This document shows positions 682-62,500 of a stretch of 63,186 nucleotides of DNA, one piece after another. Under the pieces are notes generated by a model. The model was not told where the DNA came from. It ran no database searches and saw only the letters and a list, made by a program, of their open reading frames with translations. How positions within the stretch are numbered: position 1 is the first letter of the stretch; every line of letters starts with the position of its first letter. Origin of the DNA: a bacterium BMS3Abin14 (GTDB taxonomy: Bacteria > BMS3Abin14); NCBI GenBank assembly GCA_002897695.1, contig BDTG01000013.1, positions 1 to 63,186 on the forward strand, read 5' to 3'. The position numbers and the translations under genes were made by a program.

Positions 682-975
682 TTAATCCCTGCTTTTGCTC
701 AGGCTTCTTAACGTTGCTATATCACCATCGATCAGGACTTCCTTTTTTCGACGGGACCAGTTCTTGAGGTGGTGTTCGCGGTCGATGGCTGTTTGTTCGT
801 CTTCGTACTTTTCTGAATATACCAACCTGACGGGCAAGTGTGCAGCCGTATGTCTGGATGCGAATCCACATCGGTGCCAGAGTAGTCGGTTCTTCAGGTT
901 GCTGGTGTGGCCAACGTAAAGAGAGCAATCTGAACATCTCAGGATGTAGACGTAGAATGAATTTGAAGGTGGCAT
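682..975 (-). CDS. GIY-YIG nuclease family protein (UPF0213/YhbQ-like). An alternative upstream start at 1026 is possible.
   Basis: Motif FYVYILRCSDCSLYVGHTSNLKNRLLWH...YSEKYEDEQTAIDREHHLKNW is a textbook GIY-YIG core. The long 161-aa ORF has an implausible N-terminal extension. Confidence 0.7.
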   Translation of the reverse strand: MPPSNSFYVYILRCSDCSLYVGHTSNLKNRLLWHRCGFASRHTAAHLPVRLVYSEKYEDEQTAIDREHHLKNWSRRKKEVLIDGDIATLRSLSKSRD

Positions 976-1169
976 GCAAAGAGTTGAGCAAGGATGGTGC
1001 CAAGAGGGAGTGAAGCCTTTTTGCATGTTGAACAAAACAACCCAGTGCCCCTCGATGCAACGCACATGCTTTCGGCGCTTTGCTCCTTTCGACAGGCTCA
1101 AGGCAGGCGGGACAACTCGACGCAGCTCGTGTCGCGCGGCAACCGCAACTTGGCCTGCCACGAGCAAAT

Positions 1170-1213: not shown

Positions 1214-1288
1214 TGGTGGAGACGATGGGATTTGAACCCACGACCCCCTACATGCGAAGCAGGTGCTCTCCCGCTGAGCTACGTCCCC
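1214..1288 (-). tRNA. tRNA-Ala (anticodon CGC)
   Basis: Reverse complement folds as GGGGACG / D-arm GCTCAGCGGGAGAGC / anticodon stem CCTGC-TTCGCAT-GTAGG / T-arm GGTTCAAATCC / CGTCTCC-A-CCA. The G3:U70 alanine identity pair is present and CCA is encoded. Confidence 0.9.
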
Positions 1289-1334: not shown

Positions 1335-1360
1335 GCAAGACCGGGGGTAAAAGCACTCTC
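1335..1360 (-). terminator. Hairpin CCGGGTCTggcaAGACCGGG followed on the minus strand by a T-tract; candidate terminator for the minus-strand transcript
   Basis: Stem-loop plus TTTTT on the minus strand. Confidence 0.5.
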
Positions 1361-1382
1361 CACACCCAACCGCTCCTTACCA

Positions 1383-1475
1383 GGAGCGGGATTTCATTGA
1401 AATCAGCAGCATCTTGGGTGAGGGGATGCGACCTTCTTCGCGTCCTTTGCGCCTTTAGCAAGTCGGGTATTTTGT
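1383..1475. repeat. Copy A of a ~90-bp conserved non-coding element (CAGGAGCGGGATTTCaTTGAAATC ... TGAGGGGATGC ... CTTTGCG)
   Basis: About 75 % identical to 35627-35715. Reading frames are not conserved between the copies, so it is non-coding. Confidence 0.5.
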
Positions 1476-1590
1476 TTGACGAGCGGGCGAGAGACAGATC
1501 TCAGATTTTGGTTCCAGATCTATCCGCGAAAATCCGCGTGAATCAGCGGCTAAAATACCTTTGATCGGCGGGATCGAAGGGCACCGTTCG

Positions 1591-1854
1591 CTAATCGTTC
1601 CCGAGTTTCTCCAGCTTGTGGCAGAAGTAGCATTTGGACTTGCCCTCCGGGGCCTGGCCGTCCGGCAGGACGTGGTTCTCGGGGAGGGTCTCCGGGGGAT
1701 GGCATGAAAAACAGACAGCGTAGTCTTTGTGCTTGCCGATGTGGTCGCTGTCCCTGGGCATCTTGGGGGTGGTCTCCTCCGGGGCTATGGATAAGAAGAC
1801 AAGGATGGCGGCACACACGGCCAGGAACACGATGGTCTGCCAATGCTTTTTCAT
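1591..1854 (-). CDS. Small membrane-anchored diheme c-type cytochrome (two CxxCH motifs: CFSCH, CYFCH)
   Basis: N-terminal signal/anchor helix and two CxxCH heme-binding motifs. Paralogous to 23113-23355. Confidence 0.7.
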   Translation of the reverse strand: MKKHWQTIVFLAVCAAILVFLSIAPEETTPKMPRDSDHIGKHKDYAVCFSCHPPETLPENHVLPDGQAPEGKSKCYFCHKLEKLGND

Positions 1855-2402
1855 GGTTTGATTTCTACACTATTTGCCGGGGTTGAGGCAATAACGAGTT
1901 TGGACAACCCTTTTCCTCTCGCCCGCTTCCTGTTCAAGTTCGTTGGAGTCTGGGGCGGATAATCATCATGGGCCCTTTCTAACAGGGATTAAGGGGATAG
2001 AGGGGATAAACTCCCGATTAGTTATCCCTCCATGACCGATGCCTGTCCTGAGCTTAGTCGAAGGGTGACTCCAGTGAGCCACGCTAAAGCGTGACGAACG
2101 GGTGGTGAAATAATCTGCTTTGTCGCTGTGAGCCACTCCTTCACCCCCACCTCTGTCCTCCCCCCTCGAGGGGGAGGAAGGTTTAAGATTTTATCCGTTT
2201 CAGATGTTTGTTCTACCCCCTTCATCCCTGTTAAATCTAGGCTTCCGCCTTCGTTACCCCCCTGTTACATTCCGTGTGCTAAACTCTTTCAGTATGATTG
2301 TTCAATATTCGCGGCCCTCCGCGGCAGCGCCTGAGATTGGCGCTCTTTGCGGCCCTCCGCGATAAGGCTTGTAACTATTTGGACCACTAAAGGAGGTTAA
2401 CG

Positions 2403-4954: not shown

Positions 4955-5743
4955 TCACTCCATATACTGCACGAGGAGCTGTGAGATCAGCAGGTCTTCG
5001 TCGCCGACGCGGGCGGCTGTGTGTGCCAGAAATTCCCGCATTTCGAGGCTGATCTTCCCCGGTTCAAGCGCCCCGTAGAGGGCCTGGAACCTCTGTTTTT
5101 CCTCCTCCGTGGCGGCTTCGACAAGCCGCTCCCACAATGTCTCGTACGCTATGGCAGGCCCTCTTTCGCCCGGCTTCGCCGCCAGCGCCTCCTCCAACAT
5201 GATGTCGAAGAGGAACCACGTCTGCCCCCTCTTTTTGCCCTGCATGGGATCGGCGAGGCTCCTGTAGCGTCTGTATGATCGCTCCATTACAACGTACTTG
5301 TAGCGCCTGTAAAGCCCCAGGAGGATCTCGTCCTCCACGATGCCAGGGATGACCGAGAGTACGTCCATCTCGCCGGTCACTTCCGCGATGTCCTCGCCGT
5401 CCGGAAGGGGAACCCTGCCGGGGGTCCCCTCCGCTCCGACCTCTTCAAGGTCCTTCTGAACATTCCCATCGTCCACTTCAAGGCTATCCCATTCGGTGGA
5501 GGGGATTTTCATGCGGTCGATGAGGGTTGTATGCTCCATGGCCCTGACCCCCATCTCCTCAGCGAGCATCCTGTGCCTGATGTATAATAGCCCCCTCCTC
5601 CCATTGAATCTGAAAACGTCGGTATTATCCGAGGTTTTATCGTCGTCGCCCAAGGCATCGAGGATTTCATGGAGATGGTCATGTTCCGCGACCAGATGCT
5701 GGTCGGAAAAATATTTGGGGTGAACGCTGAAAATCCTGGTCAT
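4955..5743 (-). CDS. Pyrimidine-dimer DNA glycosylase (T4 endonuclease V/DenV-like) N-terminal domain with a ~120-aa C-terminal extension of unknown function
   Basis: N-terminus MTRIFSVHPKYFSDQHLVAEHDHL parallels T4 endoV [24 protein letters not shown]. Assigned from memory. Confidence 0.6.
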   Translation of the reverse strand: MTRIFSVHPKYFSDQHLVAEHDHLHEILDALGDDDKTSDNTDVFRFNGRRGLLYIRHRMLAEEMGVRAMEHTTLIDRMKIPSTEWDSLEVDDGNVQKDLEEVGAEGTPGRVPLPDGEDIAEVTGEMDVLSVIPGIVEDEILLGLYRRYKYVVMERSYRRYRSLADPMQGKKRGQTWFLFDIMLEEALAAKPGERGPAIAYETLWERLVEAATEEEKQRFQALYGALEPGKISLEMREFLAHTAARVGDEDLLISQLLVQYME

Positions 5744-6542: not shown

Positions 6543-8006
6543 TTATTGCTCTGTGTTCACCCGTTTGACTTTCAGGGACAGCCCATCTGCCTCTGTCACC
6601 TTGACCTTCTCCCCTGACTTGATAGTTTCAGTTGAGACCGCTGACCAGATCTCTCCGTGAATCATTATCTTTCCCTCCGGGGCCAGGTCGGTGCCGGCAA
6701 CCCCCACCTCTCCGATGAGCCCCTCGATCCCGGTTGTAACCTTTCTCATTCTTATCCTGACGGCAAATCCAAGTAACACCACGAAGATGAGTACGATGAT
6801 ACCTGTCATCCCGAAGATCAGGGACAGGGAAACACGGTAGTACGGATCGGCGGAGTTGAAAAACATCAGGCTACCCAACACCAGGGACAGGATGCCGCCA
6901 ACCGTCAGCATTCCGAAAGAAACCACCTTTACCTCCAGGACAAAAAGCACCAGCGCGAACAGGATAAGAAGAACGCCCGCATAGTTGACGGGCAGGAGCT
7001 GAAAAGAAAAAAAGGCAAGGATTATGGAAATCCCGCCAAGGACGCCCGGCAGGATAACGCCCGGGTTGACCAGTTCGAAGAAGATACCGAAGATCCCGAG
7101 CAGCATGAGGAGATATGCGACGTTGGGGTCGGTGATAACAGCCAGGATCCTTCTCCGGGTGCCCATGGGCCTATCCTCAATACGTGCGCCGGAGAGGGCT
7201 ATAATACGCTTTCCGCCCGACACCGTCACCTCCATCCCCTCAATTCCCTTCAACAGTGCGTCCACGTCCGGAGCTATGAAATCCACTACCCCTTCCTTAA
7301 CGGCCTCCGTCTCCGTCGAGGAGATGCTTTCCCGGACAGCCCGCTCGGCCCACTCGACGTTGCGGCCGTTTTTAGCGGCTATTGAACGTATAAAGGCCAC
7401 GGTGTCGTTGAGAATTTTGGTCGCCATGATATCGCCCTCCGGGGGCGGCGAAGCTGCCTTTCCCTTTCCATCTTTCCCGGATTCCTTCTCCCCCTCTTTC
7501 TTCTTCCCGCCGAAAAATCCCCCTCCCCCCACTGTGACAGGGTGGGCCGCCCCGATAGTAGTCCCCGGGGCCATGACCGCAATGGGAGCCGCAAGGGTAA
7601 TGAAAACTCCTGCCGATGCGGCCCTCGCCCCCGAAGGGGCAACGTAGACCGCCACCGGAACGGGCGAAGCGAGAATGGCCTTGACGATCTGCCGCATGGA
7701 TGACATGAGTCCACCGGGGGTGTCCAGCTGAAGGATCAAAAGCCCGGCTTTGTCCTTTTCCGCTTTCACGAGCTGTTCTACGATGTAGTTTGCGGTAATC
7801 GGGTTGATGGATCCGTCGACGAAAATACGAACGACCAGGGGCGGGCTCTTATCCGCATCCTGCCCGGTAAGGACAACATCACTGTCGGCCATAAGACCGG
7901 ACGGGCGCTGTCCATCGGGAAACCAGCCGGTGTCTGGAAGAGCCAGAAAAAAGCCCAGAATGGCTAAAAAGACGATTACACGCATGCAAATTCTTCTCAT
8001 GCTCAA
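6543..8006 (-). CDS. NfeD-family membrane-bound ClpP-class serine protease (stomatin operon partner)
   Basis: Signal peptide, ClpP-like domain, multi-TM segment and C-terminal OB domain. Canonically paired with the adjacent SPFH gene. Confidence 0.85.
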
Positions 8007-26991: not shown

Positions 26992-27089
26992 GGCATCACC
27001 CGGTCAGCAAATGGGTTGAATGGATAAACTTTCCAGAAGTTCATTATCGAGGATTTGCCATAATCCATCAAGCGGGATGTAATGATCCC

Positions 27090-27139
27090 CGTCTTCCAAA
27101 ACAAAAAGCCACGAATGGACTTTTTGCGACTCTGTCAAT
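27090..27139. repeat. REP-like element R2 (CGTCTTCCAAAACAAAAAGCCaCGAATGgACTTTTTGCGACTCTGTCAAT), second copy of 57875-57924
   Basis: About 94 % identical over 50 nt, with an internal 7-bp inverted repeat CAAAAAG/CTTTTTG. Confidence 0.5.
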
Positions 27140-27621: not shown

Positions 27622-27639
27622 CCCAGGACACAAAAAAAG

Positions 27640-27678
27640 ACCCCGGGACATTTAATGTCCCGGGGTCTTCAGGTGGCC
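27640..27678. terminator. Perfect 13-bp-stem hairpin GACCCCGGGACAT-ttaa-ATGTCCCGGGGTC between convergent genes
   Basis: Inverted repeat with A/T flanks on both strands. Confidence 0.65.
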
Positions 27679-27692
27679 TGCTCTAACGTGGC

Positions 27693-27893
27693 TTACAGAG
27701 CGGTGACGTTATTGGCCTGAGGTCCCTTGGGGCCGTCTACAACCTCAAAGCTCACTTTCTGGCCCTCATTCAGGGTCTTGAAGCCGTCACCCTGAATTGC
27801 CGAGAAATGGACGAAAACGTCTGGGCCTTCGGCCTGCTCGATGAACCCGAAACCCTTGGACTCGTTAAACCACTTTACAGTTCCTTCTGCCAT
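27693..27893 (-). CDS. cspA: Cold-shock protein (CspA family)
   Basis: [50 protein letters not shown] carries the RNP1/RNP2 motifs. A long 5' UTR is typical. Confidence 0.9.
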
Positions 27894-28233
27894 TTTACTT
27901 CTCCTTCTTTCTCTGTTTTTTTGCAGCTTGCCGGAACAGCCCTGGAACAAATCAAAAAAGGCCCTGAACGTAAAGCCCAAGACCATTATTCGATCAAATG
28001 TTCTCCATAAAGCTCTTCCGTACTACAAAACTGGTTTTAACCGGGAGCAACTCTCACCGGCGAGGTATAGATACTCTAAAGGAAAGGGAGTTGCAAGCTT
28101 TTTTTTTCGGTGATTATCCCCGGGAAATGGTCAGAACCTGAAACCCCTTTGCCATTTTAAAAAAATTGGGTATTTTCCAATCCCTGGGCCGATAATAATA
28201 TCGTCCAACTTTTTCAAAGGGGTATGGAAAACC

Positions 28234-29754: not shown

Positions 29755-29930
29755 AACGTCCAACGTCCAAGGTCCAATGCCCAACGGGGGAAAGCAGTAT
29801 CGAAGTAACGAGGTATCGAAGTGTCGAGGTGTTGGCGGCGGGCGATGGGCAATAGGCGATGGGCTATAGGCTATAGGCAATCATGACTCAGCTCACGATG
29901 ACAAATTACCCTCTGGACTCTGGACTCCAG
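29755..29930. repeat. Intergenic array of short tandem repeats: (AaCGTCC)x4, (GTaTCGAr)x4, (GGCGATGGG/CTATAGG)n, (CTCTGGA)x2
   Basis: Direct reading. Several different 7-8-nt units in tandem with no spacers. Confidence 0.6.
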
Positions 29931-29953
29931 CACGTGGAACATGGAACCGGGTT

Positions 29954-34473: not shown

Positions 34474-35515
34474 GTGCTCTTCGGCACCCCTAAAAACCGT
34501 GCAGGTTTTTTGCCCGTCATGGCTGTCGCGACGGCATCAATCATGATGATCGCGGCATTTCCGGCAAAAGCCCTTTCCCACGGACCCGGGGAAGAGTACG
34601 AATACGCCTCAGGTTTTTTCCACATCCGTTCCCAATCCCCGGACTACAGCCTCAGGATGACTACGCCCCACATCCTGCCCGGCTCCATTGGCCATGGTGT
34701 TAATATCTTTACAGGGAGCACGGTCTCCAACGTCTGGGTTAACGGGGACCTGCTGGACCTGGACTTCGAGATGCTCGATTACAACCTCGGGATAACATAC
34801 GGGGTCAACCATCGTGTCGGCTTTGCTTTCATCTACGACCAGAGAAACTACTTCGGGGGGGGTGCTCGACGGGTTGATCCAGAATTTTCATTCGGCCATG
34901 GGAATGGGCCAGGATGGACGCGACCTGGTGGATAAGAGACAGACCAGCATTGTCCGGTACGACAACGGCGGCAACGTGATATTCCGGGCCGACGATCTGA
35001 GCGTGCTGGAAAACAGCGGTCTCACTCTCCTGGCTCAGTATGTCCTTTTCTTTTCACAGGACGGCTTTCCCGTTGCAGGAATCTCCGGAGGCATCCGGTA
35101 TGGGCTGGAAATGCCTGAGGGGGCCGACGACGGTGACCGGGTGGACTGGACCGTCGGGGCCGGCGCAGGCAAACGCCTCAGCGATAGCTGGTATATGTGC
35201 CTGCACCTCGGTTATACACACTACGGCCAGACAGATATTCTGGGTTTCACGCTCAAGGACTATTCCACCACCGAGATCCTCGCTATCGGCTGGACACTCA
35301 GCCCCAGGTTCACCCTTTTGGGGCAGTATTCGCACAACAGCAGCCTGATAAGGAATATGGGAAAGTTCAGCACGGGGCCCCACGAGCTGGACCTGGGCTT
35401 TAAATGGAGAGCATCTGAAAACGGGGATCTCGAATTCGCAATGATCGAAAATATCTTCACCTTCGCGAATGGCCCCGATTTCGGCCTGCACCTGGCCTAT
35501 TCGTTAAGAATATAA
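34474..35515 (+). pseudogene. Putative outer-membrane beta-barrel protein gene split by a frameshift at a G8 homopolymer (34853-34860)
   Basis: ORFs 34474-34935 and 34814-35515 lie in different frames and overlap exactly at GGGGGGGG. Both halves show alternating amphipathic beta-strand character. Confidence 0.5.
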
Positions 35516-35626
35516 AATGGGTTCATCAACAAAAATTAGTATTTGGCTTTGAAATCTGTTTCCTCACGCTCGGTCGTCCCGACGCAGGCGGAACTCGCTA
35601 AAGGCGCAAGGACGTCCCTTGGCAGG

Positions 35627-35715
35627 AGCGGGATTTCCTTGAAATCGGCTGGAAGCAACTTGGATGAGGGGATGCTCTCTACTTTGCGAGCTTTGCGGCT
35701 TGAGTTAATCACGCT
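35627..35715. repeat. Copy B of the ~90-bp conserved non-coding element (see 1383-1475)
   Basis: About 75 % identical to copy A. A GATTTCcTTGAAATC palindrome is retained. Confidence 0.5.
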
Positions 35716-35801
35716 GGCCGTGTGATTAACGGGCGTGAGACAAATTAATGTTAAAATACGATGTAGGCAGGAGGCCAGGACAGAGGCGAGGGGGGGGATA
35801 A

Positions 35802-35888
35802 TGGTGCCGGAGGAGGGATTCGAACCCTCACAACCCGAAGATCACTGGATTTTGAGTCCAGCGCGTCTACCAGTTCCGCCACTCCGGC
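35802..35888 (-). tRNA. tRNA-Leu (anticodon CAA), with long variable arm and encoded CCA
   Basis: Reverse complement GCCGGAGTGGCGGAACTGGTAGACGCGCTGGACTCAAAATCCAG...GGGTTCGAATCCCTCTCCGGCACCA folds as a class II tRNA. Confidence 0.9.
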
Positions 35889-43373: not shown

Positions 43374-43476
43374 CCCACACGCCCATACGCCCCTACTCCC
43401 ACACACCCATACTCCCTTATTGCCCTTTCTCCGTGTCTGTTCTTCCCCTCTGGACTCTGGACTCTGGACTCTCTGC
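43374..43476. repeat. Intergenic short-tandem-repeat array: CCCAyAC-type 7-8-mers x5, then (CTCTGGA)x3
   Basis: Direct reading. Shares the CTCTGGA unit with 29911-29930 and 52174-52203. Confidence 0.6.
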
Positions 43477-43490
43477 TTCCATGCTCCCGC

Positions 43491-50006: not shown

Positions 50007-50359
50007 CAGGTTGTCATCGCATTTCACTCAGGGCTTTCCCCTTCGCTGAAGCTATGGGGGACAAGCGCAATGACACCTCTCTCGTATTCGCGTTCCTTTC
50101 TGTCCAGAAAACAGGGTGTTGGAAACCAGGATCAGGAAGCGTCATCCACAAGAAACCCTGGTTCCGGACCGTTGACCAATATTCAGTTTTCCATTATTAG
50201 TAGGATTGAAAAAATCCATTGATGACCTTTTAAGGTGATGGAGTTCACCATGAAACTGCCCTGAGGGGATAATGACTCCTGACAAGATCGCATGCCGGCA
50301 GGGCCGTGGGATCGGCCGTCGAGAGGCTCTGCCGGACATAGACCTGGAGGAGTCGAAAT

Positions 50360-62148: not shown

Positions 62149-62387
62149 TTAATCCATGGGCGGTTTCATGGGAGGTTTTCGGGAATTTGGCAATGGAAAG
62201 ATCAGTGGACCTGACATGAGCAAGCATGAACTTCGAGCGCCCCTTCCCTCGACCAAGCTCCTTTCCCCTCGGCAGGCTCGGGACAGGCGACAAGCTCAAG
62301 GCAGGCGGGACAGGCCCTCCGACGCGCTTCGCTTGCTCAGGATTCTAAAGAGTGCTCGTGACCGTGGCCAGATTTAATGTAGTCCCT

Positions 62388-62500
62388 GCTTTTGCTAAGG
62401 TTTCTTAGTCTTTTCATGTCACCATCAATCAGAGCTTCCTTCTTGATACGAGACCAGGATTTGAGCTGGTGTTCGCGGATGGTGGGTTTGGGAAGGGCTA
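62388..62500 (-). pseudogene. C-terminal fragment (~35 codons) of a second GIY-YIG gene, homologous to 682-795
   Basis: Translates to ...IREHQLKSWSRIKKEALIDGDMKRLRNLSKSRDY, versus copy 1 ...DREHHLKNWSRRKKEVLIDGDIATLRSLSKSRD. An upstream in-frame stop intervenes and the N-terminus is absent. Confidence 0.55.

What the first reader, a model, noticed from the sequence alone, without database searches (positions are those of the whole stretch)
1383..1475. About 90-bp conserved non-coding element present once next to each tRNA gene (tRNA-Ala and tRNA-Leu): candidate small RNA or regulatory element
Positions 1383-1475 and 35627-35715 share about 75 % identity, with conserved blocks CAGGAGCGGGATTTCnTTGAAATC (containing a palindrome), CTTGGnTGAGGGGATGC and CTTTGCG.

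Reading frames differ between the two copies, so conservation is at the nucleotide level. Copy A lies between a cytochrome gene and a downstream terminator hairpin on the minus strand, so it would be transcribed as a 3'-UTR or sRNA. Both copies are within 300 bp of a tRNA gene.
Basis: seen in the sequence. Interest (0 to 1): 0.55.

Follow-up and report, generated by a model that had tools for sequence, protein, structure and literature searches.

The report
Decayed palindromic intergenic repeat near tRNAs
The two look-alike non-coding stretches are real, but they are best read as gene-less, partly eroded copies of a palindromic intergenic repeat family found in many anaerobic bacteria, whose intact relatives bracket a small nuclease-like gene, and not as a tRNA-linked small RNA or regulator.

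Summary
Positions 1375-1458 and 35617-35704 align at 78% identity, far above shuffled controls, and similarity continues to about 1357-1501 and 35548-35750.

No Rfam family matches. Each copy is a mosaic of nested palindromes.

One module, the "arm" (ATCTGTCTCACGCCCG, a covarying hairpin, then CTCAAGNCGCAAAGNCGCAAAG), belongs to a widespread family. About 29 metagenome loci carry it, singly, as inverted pairs or in tandem. Its short form, [TCTTTGCG]3TGAG, was listed in 2010 as a multicopy "octanucleotide repeat" of Geobacter bemidjiensis, function unknown.

In 5 of 5 GxxExxY (PDDEXK_3) gene loci examined, arm motifs lie on both sides of the ORF, as clear inverted pairs in four. Copy B is arm, centre, inverted arm with no ORF. 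Copy A has one arm plus the centre.

A sister organism keeps the arm but lacks the centre at one orthologous locus, and the reverse at the other.

Hairpins fold equally well on both strands, and only 1 of about 29 family loci lies near a tRNA.

Best reading: MITE/REP-like selfish or relic DNA that may incidentally form transcript hairpins. Interest is modest. The GxxExxY link is the lead worth following.

The parts
1357..1429 (.). Copy A, centre module. It is a set of nested palindromes: outer stem 1357-1369 / 1414-1426, hairpin CCGCTCCT-TACC-AGGAGCGG (1370-1389) and hairpin GATTTC-ATT-GAAATC (1392-1406).
   Evidence: Inverted repeats. Folds (z = -6.3 on the plus strand, -4.9 on the minus strand). 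The profile of the centre finds it only in A, B and weakly in L064.
1429..1501 (-). Copy A, the arm. Read on the minus strand it is ATCTGTCTCTCGCCCG, a degenerate hairpin (GTC...GAC), then CTAAAGGCGCAAAGGACGCGAAG. It is a member of the widespread arm family.
   Evidence: nhmmer E = 6.8e-12. Covariance model R1: 53.8 bits, E = 1.6e-12. Alignment with family members.
1505..1570 (-). A second flank module abutting copy A, of the GCCGCTGATTCACGCGGATTTTCGCGGAT type. It recurs beside the centre module in the sister organism (L064, about 5082-5142).
   Evidence: Local alignment score 48 against shuffles of 14.8 +/- 2.1, maximum 24. It is absent from L025.
35552..35626 (+). Copy B, second arm, inverted relative to the other arm. 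It reads AAATCTGTTTCCTCACGCTCGG, hairpin GTCG-TCC-CGAC, then CTCGCTAAAGGCGCAAGGACG, and is more eroded.
   Evidence: nhmmer 35552-35613, E = 6.5e-4. Model R1 35554-35626, E = 1.4e-3. The terminal stem appears in the fold of the whole element.
35616..35675 (.). Copy B, centre module. It keeps the palindrome GATTTC-CTT-GAAATC and TTGGATGAGGGGATGC, but has lost the outer stem and half of hairpin 1.
   Evidence: Alignments. Centre profile E = 1.3e-20. It does not fold like copy A (z = -0.15 and -0.38).
35674..35747 (-). Copy B, main arm. Read on the minus strand it is ATTTGTCTCACGCCCG, hairpin TTAATCAC...GTGATTAA, then CTCAAGCCGCAAAGCTCGCAAAG.
   Evidence: nhmmer E = 2.5e-13. Model R1: 61.3 bits, E = 1.5e-14. 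The 20-nt stretch CTTTGCGAGCTTTGCGGCTT is identical to the arm downstream of the GxxExxY gene in L044.
1214..1288 (-). Context only: tRNA-Ala(CGC), about 68 nt from copy A. A sigma-70-like promoter (1338-1310) and a terminator-like hairpin (1342-1329) lie in between.
35802..35888 (-). Context only: tRNA-Leu(CAA), about 52 nt from copy B. No terminator-like site was found between the tRNA and the convergent DUF3187 gene.

Best explanation
The two copies are ORF-less, partly decayed members of a dispersed palindromic intergenic repeat, comparable to MITE, REP/BIME or ERIC elements.

Build. Each copy is a mosaic.
- One module is an "arm": a conserved terminal motif (A)ATCTGTCTCACGCCCG, a hairpin of variable sequence, then octamer repeats CTCAAGNCGCAAAGNCGCAAAG.
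- The other is a lineage-specific "centre" made of nested hairpins.
- In intact relatives elsewhere, arm motifs lie on both sides of a small GxxExxY (PD-(D/E)XK-fold, PDDEXK_3) gene, in four of five loci as a clear inverted pair.
- Copy B has the layout arm, centre, inverted arm with no gene. Copy A has the centre and one arm.

Shown here:
- membership of the arm family;
- covariation in the arm hairpin;
- the association of arms with GxxExxY genes;
- turnover of the element between sister organisms.

Inferred:
- The family persists and spreads as selfish DNA at the DNA level.
- The terminal motif plus hairpin is the feature recognised by whatever enzyme moves or copies it. The GxxExxY nuclease is the obvious but unproven candidate.
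- The window copies are now relics. Their main present-day effect is that, when transcribed (copy A in the 3' UTR of the CxxCH gene, copy B between the convergent DUF3187 gene and tRNA-Leu), they form long hairpins that could stall exonucleases, be cut by RNase III, or help end transcription.
- Their position next to both tRNA genes most likely reflects tRNA flanks being permissive landing or retention sites for mobile DNA, not a tRNA-related function.
For: 1. The arm is a real, widespread family. The pattern TGTCTCNCGCCCGN{18,32}AAGNCGCAAA gave 34 metagenome loci, against a handful expected from my rough chance estimate. About 29 of them align over roughly 70 nt.
2. The arm hairpin covaries. 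Stems seen include GACGCTGC/GCAGCGTC, GATCCGG/CCGGATC, GTCAGGC/GCCTGAC, GTCACG/CGTGAC and AATCAC/GTGATT. Six of 7 pairs show changes on both sides. 82.5% of cells are paired against 64% in shuffles (0 of 500 reach it) and 23-46% when partners are slid.
3. Arrangements are those of dispersed repeats:
   - single arms;
   - ORF-less inverted pairs (L053, L056, L058, L059, L040);
   - three 268-nt tandem units next to an IS110-family transposase gene (L041).
4. GxxExxY genes carry arm motifs on both sides in L044 and L039, which were found through the arm, and in all three loci fetched through the protein alone (L069, L079, L081). Four show a clear inverted pair. L081 has several arms in mixed orientation.
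5. Copy B has two inverted arms whose ends pair. Its arm shares 20 of 20 nt with the arm downstream of the L044 gene.
6. The short arm equals the "octanucleotide repeats YTT[TCTTTGCG]3TGAGG" of Geobacter bemidjiensis: 34 copies, mostly two per intergenic region, function unknown (PMC2996986 Table S6).
7. Turnover is rapid. The sister organism keeps the arm without the centre at the CxxCH/tRNA-Ala locus (L025). At the DUF3187/tRNA-Leu locus (L064) it keeps a diverged centre with only vestigial arms.
8. There is no strand bias in pairing, no Rfam match and no conserved ORF.
Against: - Mobility is not demonstrated. No target-site duplication and no clean empty site were found (my reading).
- Only two copies occur in 63 kb plus about 17 kb of neighbouring or sister sequence. 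The rest of the genome could not be scanned.
- No GxxExxY gene lies in the window.
- GxxExxY is not a known transposase, and its link to the arms rests on only 5 loci.
- The arm core (TGTCTCACGCCCG, CTCAAGNCGCAAAG) is better conserved between sister organisms than the surrounding spacer. That could mean a host function.
- The centre of copy A and of L064 folds far better than shuffles (z about -6.3 and -6.65) with three compensatory pairs in hairpin 1. That would also fit a structured RNA.
- Both of the window's tRNAs have a copy beside them. My rough estimate of this happening by chance is 0.3-2%.
Confidence: 0.62

Rival explanations
1. The element has been taken over as a cis-acting transcript element. 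The long palindromes are kept because they act as intercistronic or 3'-end hairpins, serving as an mRNA or tRNA-precursor stabiliser, an RNase III site or a bidirectional terminator, as REP/BIME and ERIC sequences do in enterobacteria. This can coexist with a selfish origin.
For: - Copy A lies in the 3' UTR of the CxxCH gene, just before a terminator-like hairpin.
- Copy B fills the gap between the convergent DUF3187 gene and tRNA-Leu, where the scan finds no terminator-like site, and folds into a roughly 200-nt hairpin.
- In G. bemidjiensis the short arms sit in pairs between genes of the same operons.
- The arm core is conserved in the sister organism.
Against: - The hairpins are not followed by a U-run.
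- The orientation relative to neighbouring genes varies across loci.
- The element is eroded differently at the two orthologous loci.
- No expression data exist.
Confidence: 0.15
2. The centre module is a small structured RNA of about 75-140 nt, and the arms are processing stems that release it from tRNA-adjacent transcripts.
For: - The centre of copy A and of L064 adopts the same multibranch fold (closing stem, 8-bp hairpin, 6-bp hairpin) with z = -6.3 and -6.65. Hairpin 1 differs by three compensatory pairs: CCGCUCCU/AGGAGCGG against CUUCUCCC/GGGAGAAG.
- Both window copies and the L064 copy lie within about 130 nt of a tRNA gene.
Against: - Both strands fold about equally well.
- Copy B's centre has lost the fold (z = -0.15).
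- The centre is absent from the orthologous CxxCH/tRNA-Ala locus in L025.
- In L064 a 60-nt hairpin is inserted into it.
- No Rfam match and no shared promoter or terminator.
- Only three sequences are available, so the covariation is anecdotal.
Confidence: 0.1
3. The 15-bp palindrome GATTTC-N3-GAAATC is an operator for a dimeric DNA-binding regulator that controls the neighbouring genes.
For: A perfect or near-perfect palindrome is kept in A, B and L064.
Against: - It lies downstream of, or between the 3' ends of, the neighbouring genes, not in their promoters.
- It is embedded in a larger set of nested palindromes.
- The same 20-mer elsewhere occurs only by chance inside coding regions.
Confidence: 0.04
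4. A one-off duplication of ordinary spacer DNA within this genome, with no family behind it.
For: Only two copies are present in the window, and the centre is lineage-specific.
Against: The arm half has dozens of relatives in unrelated metagenomes and in Geobacter. The centre recurs in a sister organism in a different arrangement.
Confidence: 0.03

Closest known systems
"Octanucleotide repeats" YTT[TCTTTGCG]3TGAGG, one of the "multicopy nucleotide sequences" of Geobacter bemidjiensis (Aklujkar et al. 2010, BMC Genomics 11:490, Table S6, Gbem_R8001-R8034)
   Same: It has the same octamer (CTTTGCG plus one base, that is CGCAAAG on the other strand) ending in GCGTGAG. It is intergenic and usually occurs twice per intergenic region. 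In L079 the arm downstream of the GxxExxY gene reads TTTTCTTTGCGTCTTTGCGGCTTTGCGTGAGA, matching that consensus except for one base in the third octamer and the last base.
   Different: The window copies are the long form. About 35 nt, CTTGAGTG plus a covarying hairpin plus AACGGG, is inserted between the octamers and CGTGAGAC, and only two octamers remain. They also carry a lineage-specific centre. The paper gives no function and, in the parts I read, no link to GxxExxY genes.
MITEs and other small palindromic repeats (Correia/NEMIS, ERIC/IRU, RUP, Nezha)
   Same: They are 100-250 nt, have no ORF, carry terminal inverted repeats that fold into a long hairpin (copy B), are dispersed in intergenic DNA and are often co-transcribed. 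ORF-bearing relatives share the same ends.
   Different: No target-site duplication was seen. The ORF-bearing relative encodes a 125-aa PD-(D/E)XK-fold protein, not a recognised transposase. The ends are built from octamer repeats. This comparison rests partly on my own knowledge of these elements.
REP/REPIN sequences with their RAYT gene; BIME mosaics of E. coli
   Same: They have a short conserved head plus a hairpin whose stem covaries. They occur singly, as inverted doublets and in clusters. They are mosaic with other modules. A single small gene is flanked by inverted copies. IS110-family elements are known to target such repeats (my knowledge), and an IS110-family gene abuts an arm array in L041.
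   Different: There is no GTAG/GTGG head. The flanked gene is GxxExxY, not an IS200/IS605-type Y1 transposase. The arm is longer, at about 70 nt.
Intervening sequences (IVS) of 23S rRNA carrying a small ORF, for example the Coxiella burnetii IVS with S23p (PMC4990558)
   Same: A small selfish cassette in which inverted repeats form a stem around a short ORF of unknown function, lodged in a stable-RNA transcription unit and removed at the RNA level.
   Different: The window copies are next to tRNA genes, not inside them or inside rRNA. RNase III processing is untested and the ORF family is different.

Membership tests
Any Rfam family (sRNA, riboswitch, leader and so on) | A score at or above the family's gathering threshold | tested here: not met
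   Nothing overlaps either copy at the gathering threshold or at E <= 10. Sixteen related loci gave only tRNA hits.
Arm family defined here (profile and model R1) | The terminal motif TGTCTCNCGCCCG plus CTNAAGNCGCAAAG, matched by the profile | tested here: met
   Window 1432-1499(-) E = 1.6e-12; 35678-35745(-) E = 1.5e-14; 35554-35626(+) E = 1.4e-3. The two strong window arms were in the seed alignment, so their scores are partly circular. The pattern hit and alignment are independent of that.
Arm family defined here (profile and model R1) | An internal hairpin maintained by compensatory changes | tested here: met
   Family-wide: 6 of 7 pairs change on both sides, and 82.5% of cells pair against 64% in shuffles. 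Copy B has an 8-bp stem. Copy A keeps only GTC/GAC.
Geobacter octanucleotide-repeat multicopy sequence | Tandem TCTTTGCG octamers | tested here: met
   Copy B, plus strand: ACTTTGCG AGCTTTGCG GCTTGAG. Copy A, plus strand: CTTCGCG TCCTTTGCG CCTTTAG. That is two units plus a degenerate third.
Geobacter octanucleotide-repeat multicopy sequence | Octamers directly followed by TGAGG | tested here: not met
   In the window, GCGTGAGAC is separated from the octamers by about 35 nt that contain the hairpin. This is the long-arm variant.
MITE | Terminal inverted repeats | tested here: met
   Copy B has inverted arms at 35554-35626(+) and 35678-35745(-) whose ends pair in the fold. Copy A has only one arm.
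MITE | Target-site duplication flanking the element | tested here: not met
   No direct repeat at the ends of copy B or of L056 or L059 on inspection. No clean empty site in L064.
MITE | An autonomous relative with the same ends that encodes a transposase | tested here: inconclusive
   GxxExxY genes carry the arm motif on both sides in 5 of 5 loci. GxxExxY/PDDEXK_3 has no known function (PMC3424549) and is not a recognised transposase.
MITE | Many copies per genome | not testable with these tools
   Only the 63-kb window plus about 8 kb of the same contig could be read. Three arms were found.
REP/REPIN with RAYT | A GT(A/G)G head plus a 20-40-nt palindrome, and an IS200/IS605-like RAYT gene flanked by REPs | tested here: not met
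   The head is TGTCTCACGCCCG. The flanked gene is TIGR04256 GxxExxY. The defining features are taken from my own knowledge.
Independent or 3'-UTR-derived small RNA gene | Kept at orthologous loci in relatives | tested here: not met
   L025 lacks the centre. L064 has only vestigial arms and an interrupted centre. More distant CxxCH-gene loci (L026-L029) have no element.
Independent or 3'-UTR-derived small RNA gene | Strand-specific structure (G-U pairs on one strand) | tested here: not met
   7 against 5 G-U cells on the two strands. Fold energies are similar on both strands.
Independent or 3'-UTR-derived small RNA gene | A discrete transcript | not testable with these tools
   No expression data are available.
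rRNA-IVS-type cassette | It lies inside a stable-RNA gene and is excised by RNase III | tested here: not met
   The copies are 52-68 nt outside the tRNA genes. RNase III cleavage is not testable here.

The most novel reading that the evidence does not exclude
The arms are the recognition or processing brackets of an undescribed selfish cassette system built around the GxxExxY PD-(D/E)XK nuclease. This would be analogous to REP/RAYT at the DNA level or to rRNA intervening sequences at the RNA level.

On this reading the nuclease, or RNase III acting on the arm stem, mobilises or releases whatever lies between two inverted arms. The window copies would be ORF-less derivatives whose cargo is a small nested-hairpin module.

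If true, this would give a first functional context to a protein family with more than 7,900 close homologues and no known role. It would also explain the octanucleotide repeats noted in Geobacter in 2010.
Probability: 0.2. Interest if true: 0.65.

Novelty: new member of a known kind. Interest (0 to 1): 0.3.

Why it matters
For this window it matters mainly as a caution. Conserved, strongly folding non-coding blocks beside tRNA genes look like a small RNA but are better explained as palindromic repeat debris.

More broadly, the work links three things that appear not to have been connected:
- the unexplained octanucleotide multicopy repeats of Geobacter;
- a longer arm with a covarying hairpin found in many anaerobic-sediment, digester and hydrothermal metagenomes;
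- the GxxExxY/PDDEXK_3 gene family of unknown function, whose members carry these arms on both sides of the ORF.

If that link holds at scale, it defines a testable selfish-cassette system and a source of long hairpins inside operons.

Tried and rejected
1. Rfam, at the gathering threshold and at permissive E-values, on both copies and on 16 related loci: only tRNAs, a cspA element and a fluoride riboswitch elsewhere.
2. All sit in unrelated contexts, mostly coding-like, with no second block, so I treat them as chance.
3. Viral contigs, with both the arm pattern and the centre pattern: no hits.
4. The coding hypothesis was rejected. The small ORFs on either strand are not conserved between the copies, a 4-nt indel shifts the frame, and substitutions are not biased towards synonymous positions.
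5. tRNA linkage as a property of the family was rejected. Only L060 has a tRNA near the arm. It is a tRNA-Leu(CAA) about 70 nt upstream, the same layout as copy B.
6. More distant homologues of the CxxCH gene (65-69% identity) have a convergent gene right after the stop codon and no element.
7. I considered that the centre is a relic of the 5' UTR, ribosome-binding site and start codon of a GxxExxY gene, comparing TGAGGGGATGC with GGTGACGGGGAGATGC in L044 and TTGGATTGGAGGATATCC in L069. The centre profile finds nothing in those loci, so this remains an unsupported lead.
8. A sigma-54 promoter and CsrA-type GGA motifs were checked by eye only. Spacing and motifs do not fit.
9. No target-site duplications or empty sites were found.
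10. Literature searches for the literal sequences returned only unrelated primers. Searches on GIY-YIG/COG2827 and on GxxExxY found nothing about repeats or mobility.

Full report
**Observation**

The two stretches are truly similar. A local alignment pairs 1375-1458 with 35617-35704: 69 of 88 columns match (78%), with one 4-nt indel. The score is 82, against 17.6 +/- 2.1 for shuffles. The repeat finder reports the same pair.

The similarity runs further than reported, to about 1500 and 35745. The flanks beyond do not align. The window has only two tRNA genes, tRNA-Ala 1214-1288(-) and tRNA-Leu 35802-35888(-), and each has one copy within about 70 nt.

Copy A lies between a small ORF with two CxxCH motifs (1591-1854, minus strand; borderline Paired_CXXCH_1 match) and a terminator-like hairpin overlapped by a promoter-like site for the tRNA. 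Copy B lies between the 3' end of a DUF3187 gene and the 3' end of tRNA-Leu, where no terminator-like site is found.

**No known RNA and no coding potential**

Rfam gives nothing on either copy, at the gathering threshold or at E <= 10. The small ORFs across the copies are not conserved, the indel shifts the frame, and substitutions are not concentrated at synonymous positions.

**Source organism and relatives**

The CxxCH protein occurs on contigs of marine and hydrothermal metagenomes and in MAG GCA_011040875.1. A neighbouring protein is named "bacterium BMS3Abin14". Those contigs carry copy A almost unchanged.

A sister organism from sample SONG20-1 provides both orthologous loci. Its CxxCH protein is 84% identical and its DUF3187 protein 82% identical.

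- At the CxxCH/tRNA-Ala locus (L025) the part nearest the gene is kept: AATCTGTCTCACGCCCG, a hairpin, then CTCAAGGCGCAAA...
- At the DUF3187/tRNA-Leu locus (L064) the reverse holds. A diverged centre is present, interrupted by a 60-nt hairpin, and the arms are reduced to vestiges.

**The arm is a widespread family**

I used the blocks shared by A, B and L025, read on the minus strand, for the single metagenome scan. The pattern TGTCTCNCGCCCGN{18,32}AAGNCGCAAA returned 34 loci. About 29 align over roughly 70 nt. Five are chance hits, for example one inside an oxidoreductase gene.

A profile and a covariance model built from these loci find exactly three arms in the window:

| Arm | Strand | Model R1 E-value |
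|---|---|---|
| 1432-1499 | minus | 1.6e-12 |
| 35678-35745 | minus | 1.5e-14 |
| 35554-35626 (inverted) | plus | 1.4e-3 |

Copy B is therefore arm, centre, inverted arm (about 35548-35750), and its ends pair in the predicted fold. Copy A is the centre plus one arm.

The arm consists of a conserved head, an internal hairpin and octamer repeats. The hairpin stem differs between members but stays complementary. Six of 7 pairs change on both sides. 82.5% of cells pair, against 64% in shuffles (0 of 500 reach it) and 23-46% with slid partners. The alignment was fitted to the model, which favours the structure, but the distinct perfect stems are plain in the raw sequences. G-U cells are equally frequent on both strands (7 against 5), so the palindrome gives no sign of selection on one RNA strand.

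**Arrangements and associated genes**

Arms occur in several layouts:

- singly;
- as ORF-less inverted pairs 60-120 nt apart (L053, L056, L058, L059, L040);
- as three 268-nt tandem units next to an IS110-family transposase gene (L041);
- as inverted pairs around a 126-aa ORF in L044 and L039.

That ORF is a GxxExxY protein (TIGR04256, E = 1.3e-42).

To test this link without bias, I fetched three GxxExxY loci through the protein alone. All three carry arm motifs on both sides of the ORF. In L079, CTCACGCAAAGCCGCAAAGATGCAAAG ends 9 nt before the ATG, and CTTTGCGTCTTTGCGGCTTTGCGTGAGAC starts 5 nt after the stop codon. In L081 the arms are several and in mixed orientation.

Copy B's arm shares the 20-mer CTTTGCGAGCTTTGCGGCTT with the arm downstream of the L044 gene. 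No GxxExxY gene lies in the window.

**Literature**

The short form of the arm equals the "Octanucleotide repeats, consensus YTT[TCTTTGCG]3TGAGG" in Table S6 of the Geobacter bemidjiensis genome paper. That table lists 34 copies, mostly two per intergenic region. The paper groups them with other "multicopy nucleotide sequences" whose implications "remain to be elucidated" (PMC2996986).

PDDEXK_3 is listed as of unknown function, with many horizontal transfers (PMC3424549). I found nothing that connects the two.

**The centre**

- In copy A it folds as a closing stem (1357-1369 with 1414-1426) around two hairpins, with z = -6.3.
- L064 folds the same way, with an extra long hairpin, z = -6.65. 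Three compensatory pairs distinguish its hairpin 1 from that of copy A.
- Copy B has lost this fold (z = -0.15).
- Both strands fold about equally well.

A further module next to copy A (about 1505-1570) recurs next to the centre in L064. The elements are thus mosaics of palindromic modules that are shuffled and eroded between close relatives.

**tRNA proximity**

Only one of about 29 family loci has a tRNA near the arm. That is L060, a tRNA-Leu(CAA) about 70 nt upstream, after a terminator-like hairpin that I noted by eye.

The flank of tRNA-Ala is visibly a site of turnover. A strain variant (L004) carries a different GIY-YIG gene there, bracketed by direct repeats of the tRNA 3' end plus terminator. 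I therefore read the tRNA adjacency as a property of the landing or retention site. Two out of two in one window is still unlikely by chance; my rough estimate is 0.3-2%.

**Interpretation**

The best-supported reading is a dispersed, palindromic, ORF-less repeat of the MITE/REP kind, related to the inverted repeats that bracket GxxExxY genes, and now partly decayed in this lineage.

- Shown: family membership, hairpin covariation, the variety of arrangements, the GxxExxY association in 5 of 5 loci, and turnover at orthologous loci.
- Inferred: DNA-level spread, the identity of the mobilising enzyme, and any effect of the hairpins on transcripts.

The rivals are not excluded: an exapted transcript hairpin, or a small structured RNA released from between the arms. 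They need expression data.

**Verdict**

The small-RNA/regulatory interpretation is only partly supported. The element is a new lineage-specific member of a known kind of repeat. The GxxExxY link is the part worth following up.

Noticed in passing
window 34474-35515 (G-run at about 34855-34862): The DUF3187 outer-membrane-type gene upstream of copy B is split into two overlapping frames at a run of eight G. The orthologue in L064 is one intact 346-aa ORF. This is either a sequencing or assembly error, or a phase-variable or pseudogenised gene.
   Followed up: partly
window 685-975(-), window 62382-62477, and L004 about 6760-7938: A GIY-YIG gene sits just downstream of tRNA-Ala, and a truncated paralogue (75% identity over 32 aa) lies near the window's end. 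In strain variant L004 a different GIY-YIG gene (58% identical) occupies the same place. It is bracketed by roughly 100-nt direct repeats that contain the tRNA 3' end and its terminator, which looks like cassette exchange at a tRNA-linked site.
   Followed up: partly
window 1090-1114 and 62288-62312: A 25-nt repeat (24/25 identical), CAGGCTCAAGGCAGGCGGGACAA-like, lies upstream of both GIY-YIG copies. On the other strand it reads TGTCCCGCCTGCCTTGAGC and is followed in the first copy by GCAAAGCGCCGAAAGC, which loosely recalls the arm. The arm models do not detect it.
   Followed up: partly
window 1960-2400: The spacer upstream of the CxxCH gene is full of short motifs that look like repeats, such as CCTGAGCTTAGTCGAAGGG, GGGATAGAGGGGATAAAC and two copies of GCGGCCCTCCGCG. 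No second copy exists in the window.
   Followed up: partly
window 27635-27980(-) and 50225-50288(+): Rfam matches above the gathering threshold: cspA thermoregulator (95.4 bits) and fluoride riboswitch (44.8 bits). Neither is related to the finding.
   Followed up: no
window 57598-59734 and 27088-27139: Perfect 51-nt direct repeats (57925-57975 and 59640-59690), with further 38-52-nt repeats at 95-96% identity, bracket a 284-aa ORF with no Pfam match and what look by eye like a RelE/ParE-type toxin and Phd/YefM-type antitoxin pair. This may be a small mobile or duplicated module.
   Followed up: partly
window 29891-29935, 43428-43488, 52154-52221: Three loci share a (CTCTGGACT)n-like short tandem motif with similar flanks (repeat families D2 and D8).
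   Followed up: no
L041 1-610 and 650-1702(-): Three 268-nt tandem units, each starting with an arm, end about 40 nt from the stop codon of an IS110-family transposase gene (Pfam DEDD_Tnp_IS110 plus Transposase_20). IS110 elements are known to target repeat sequences (my knowledge).
   Followed up: partly
L039 12026-12406: The GxxExxY gene flanked by arms in this locus has an in-frame stop codon, so it is probably a pseudogene.
   Followed up: no
PMC2996986 Table S6 (G. bemidjiensis): A second repeat family there, the nonanucleotide repeats TTT[WCCTCTGTGR]nGTGAG, has the same design: short tandem units ending in GTGAG. This suggests a wider class of such arms.
   Followed up: no
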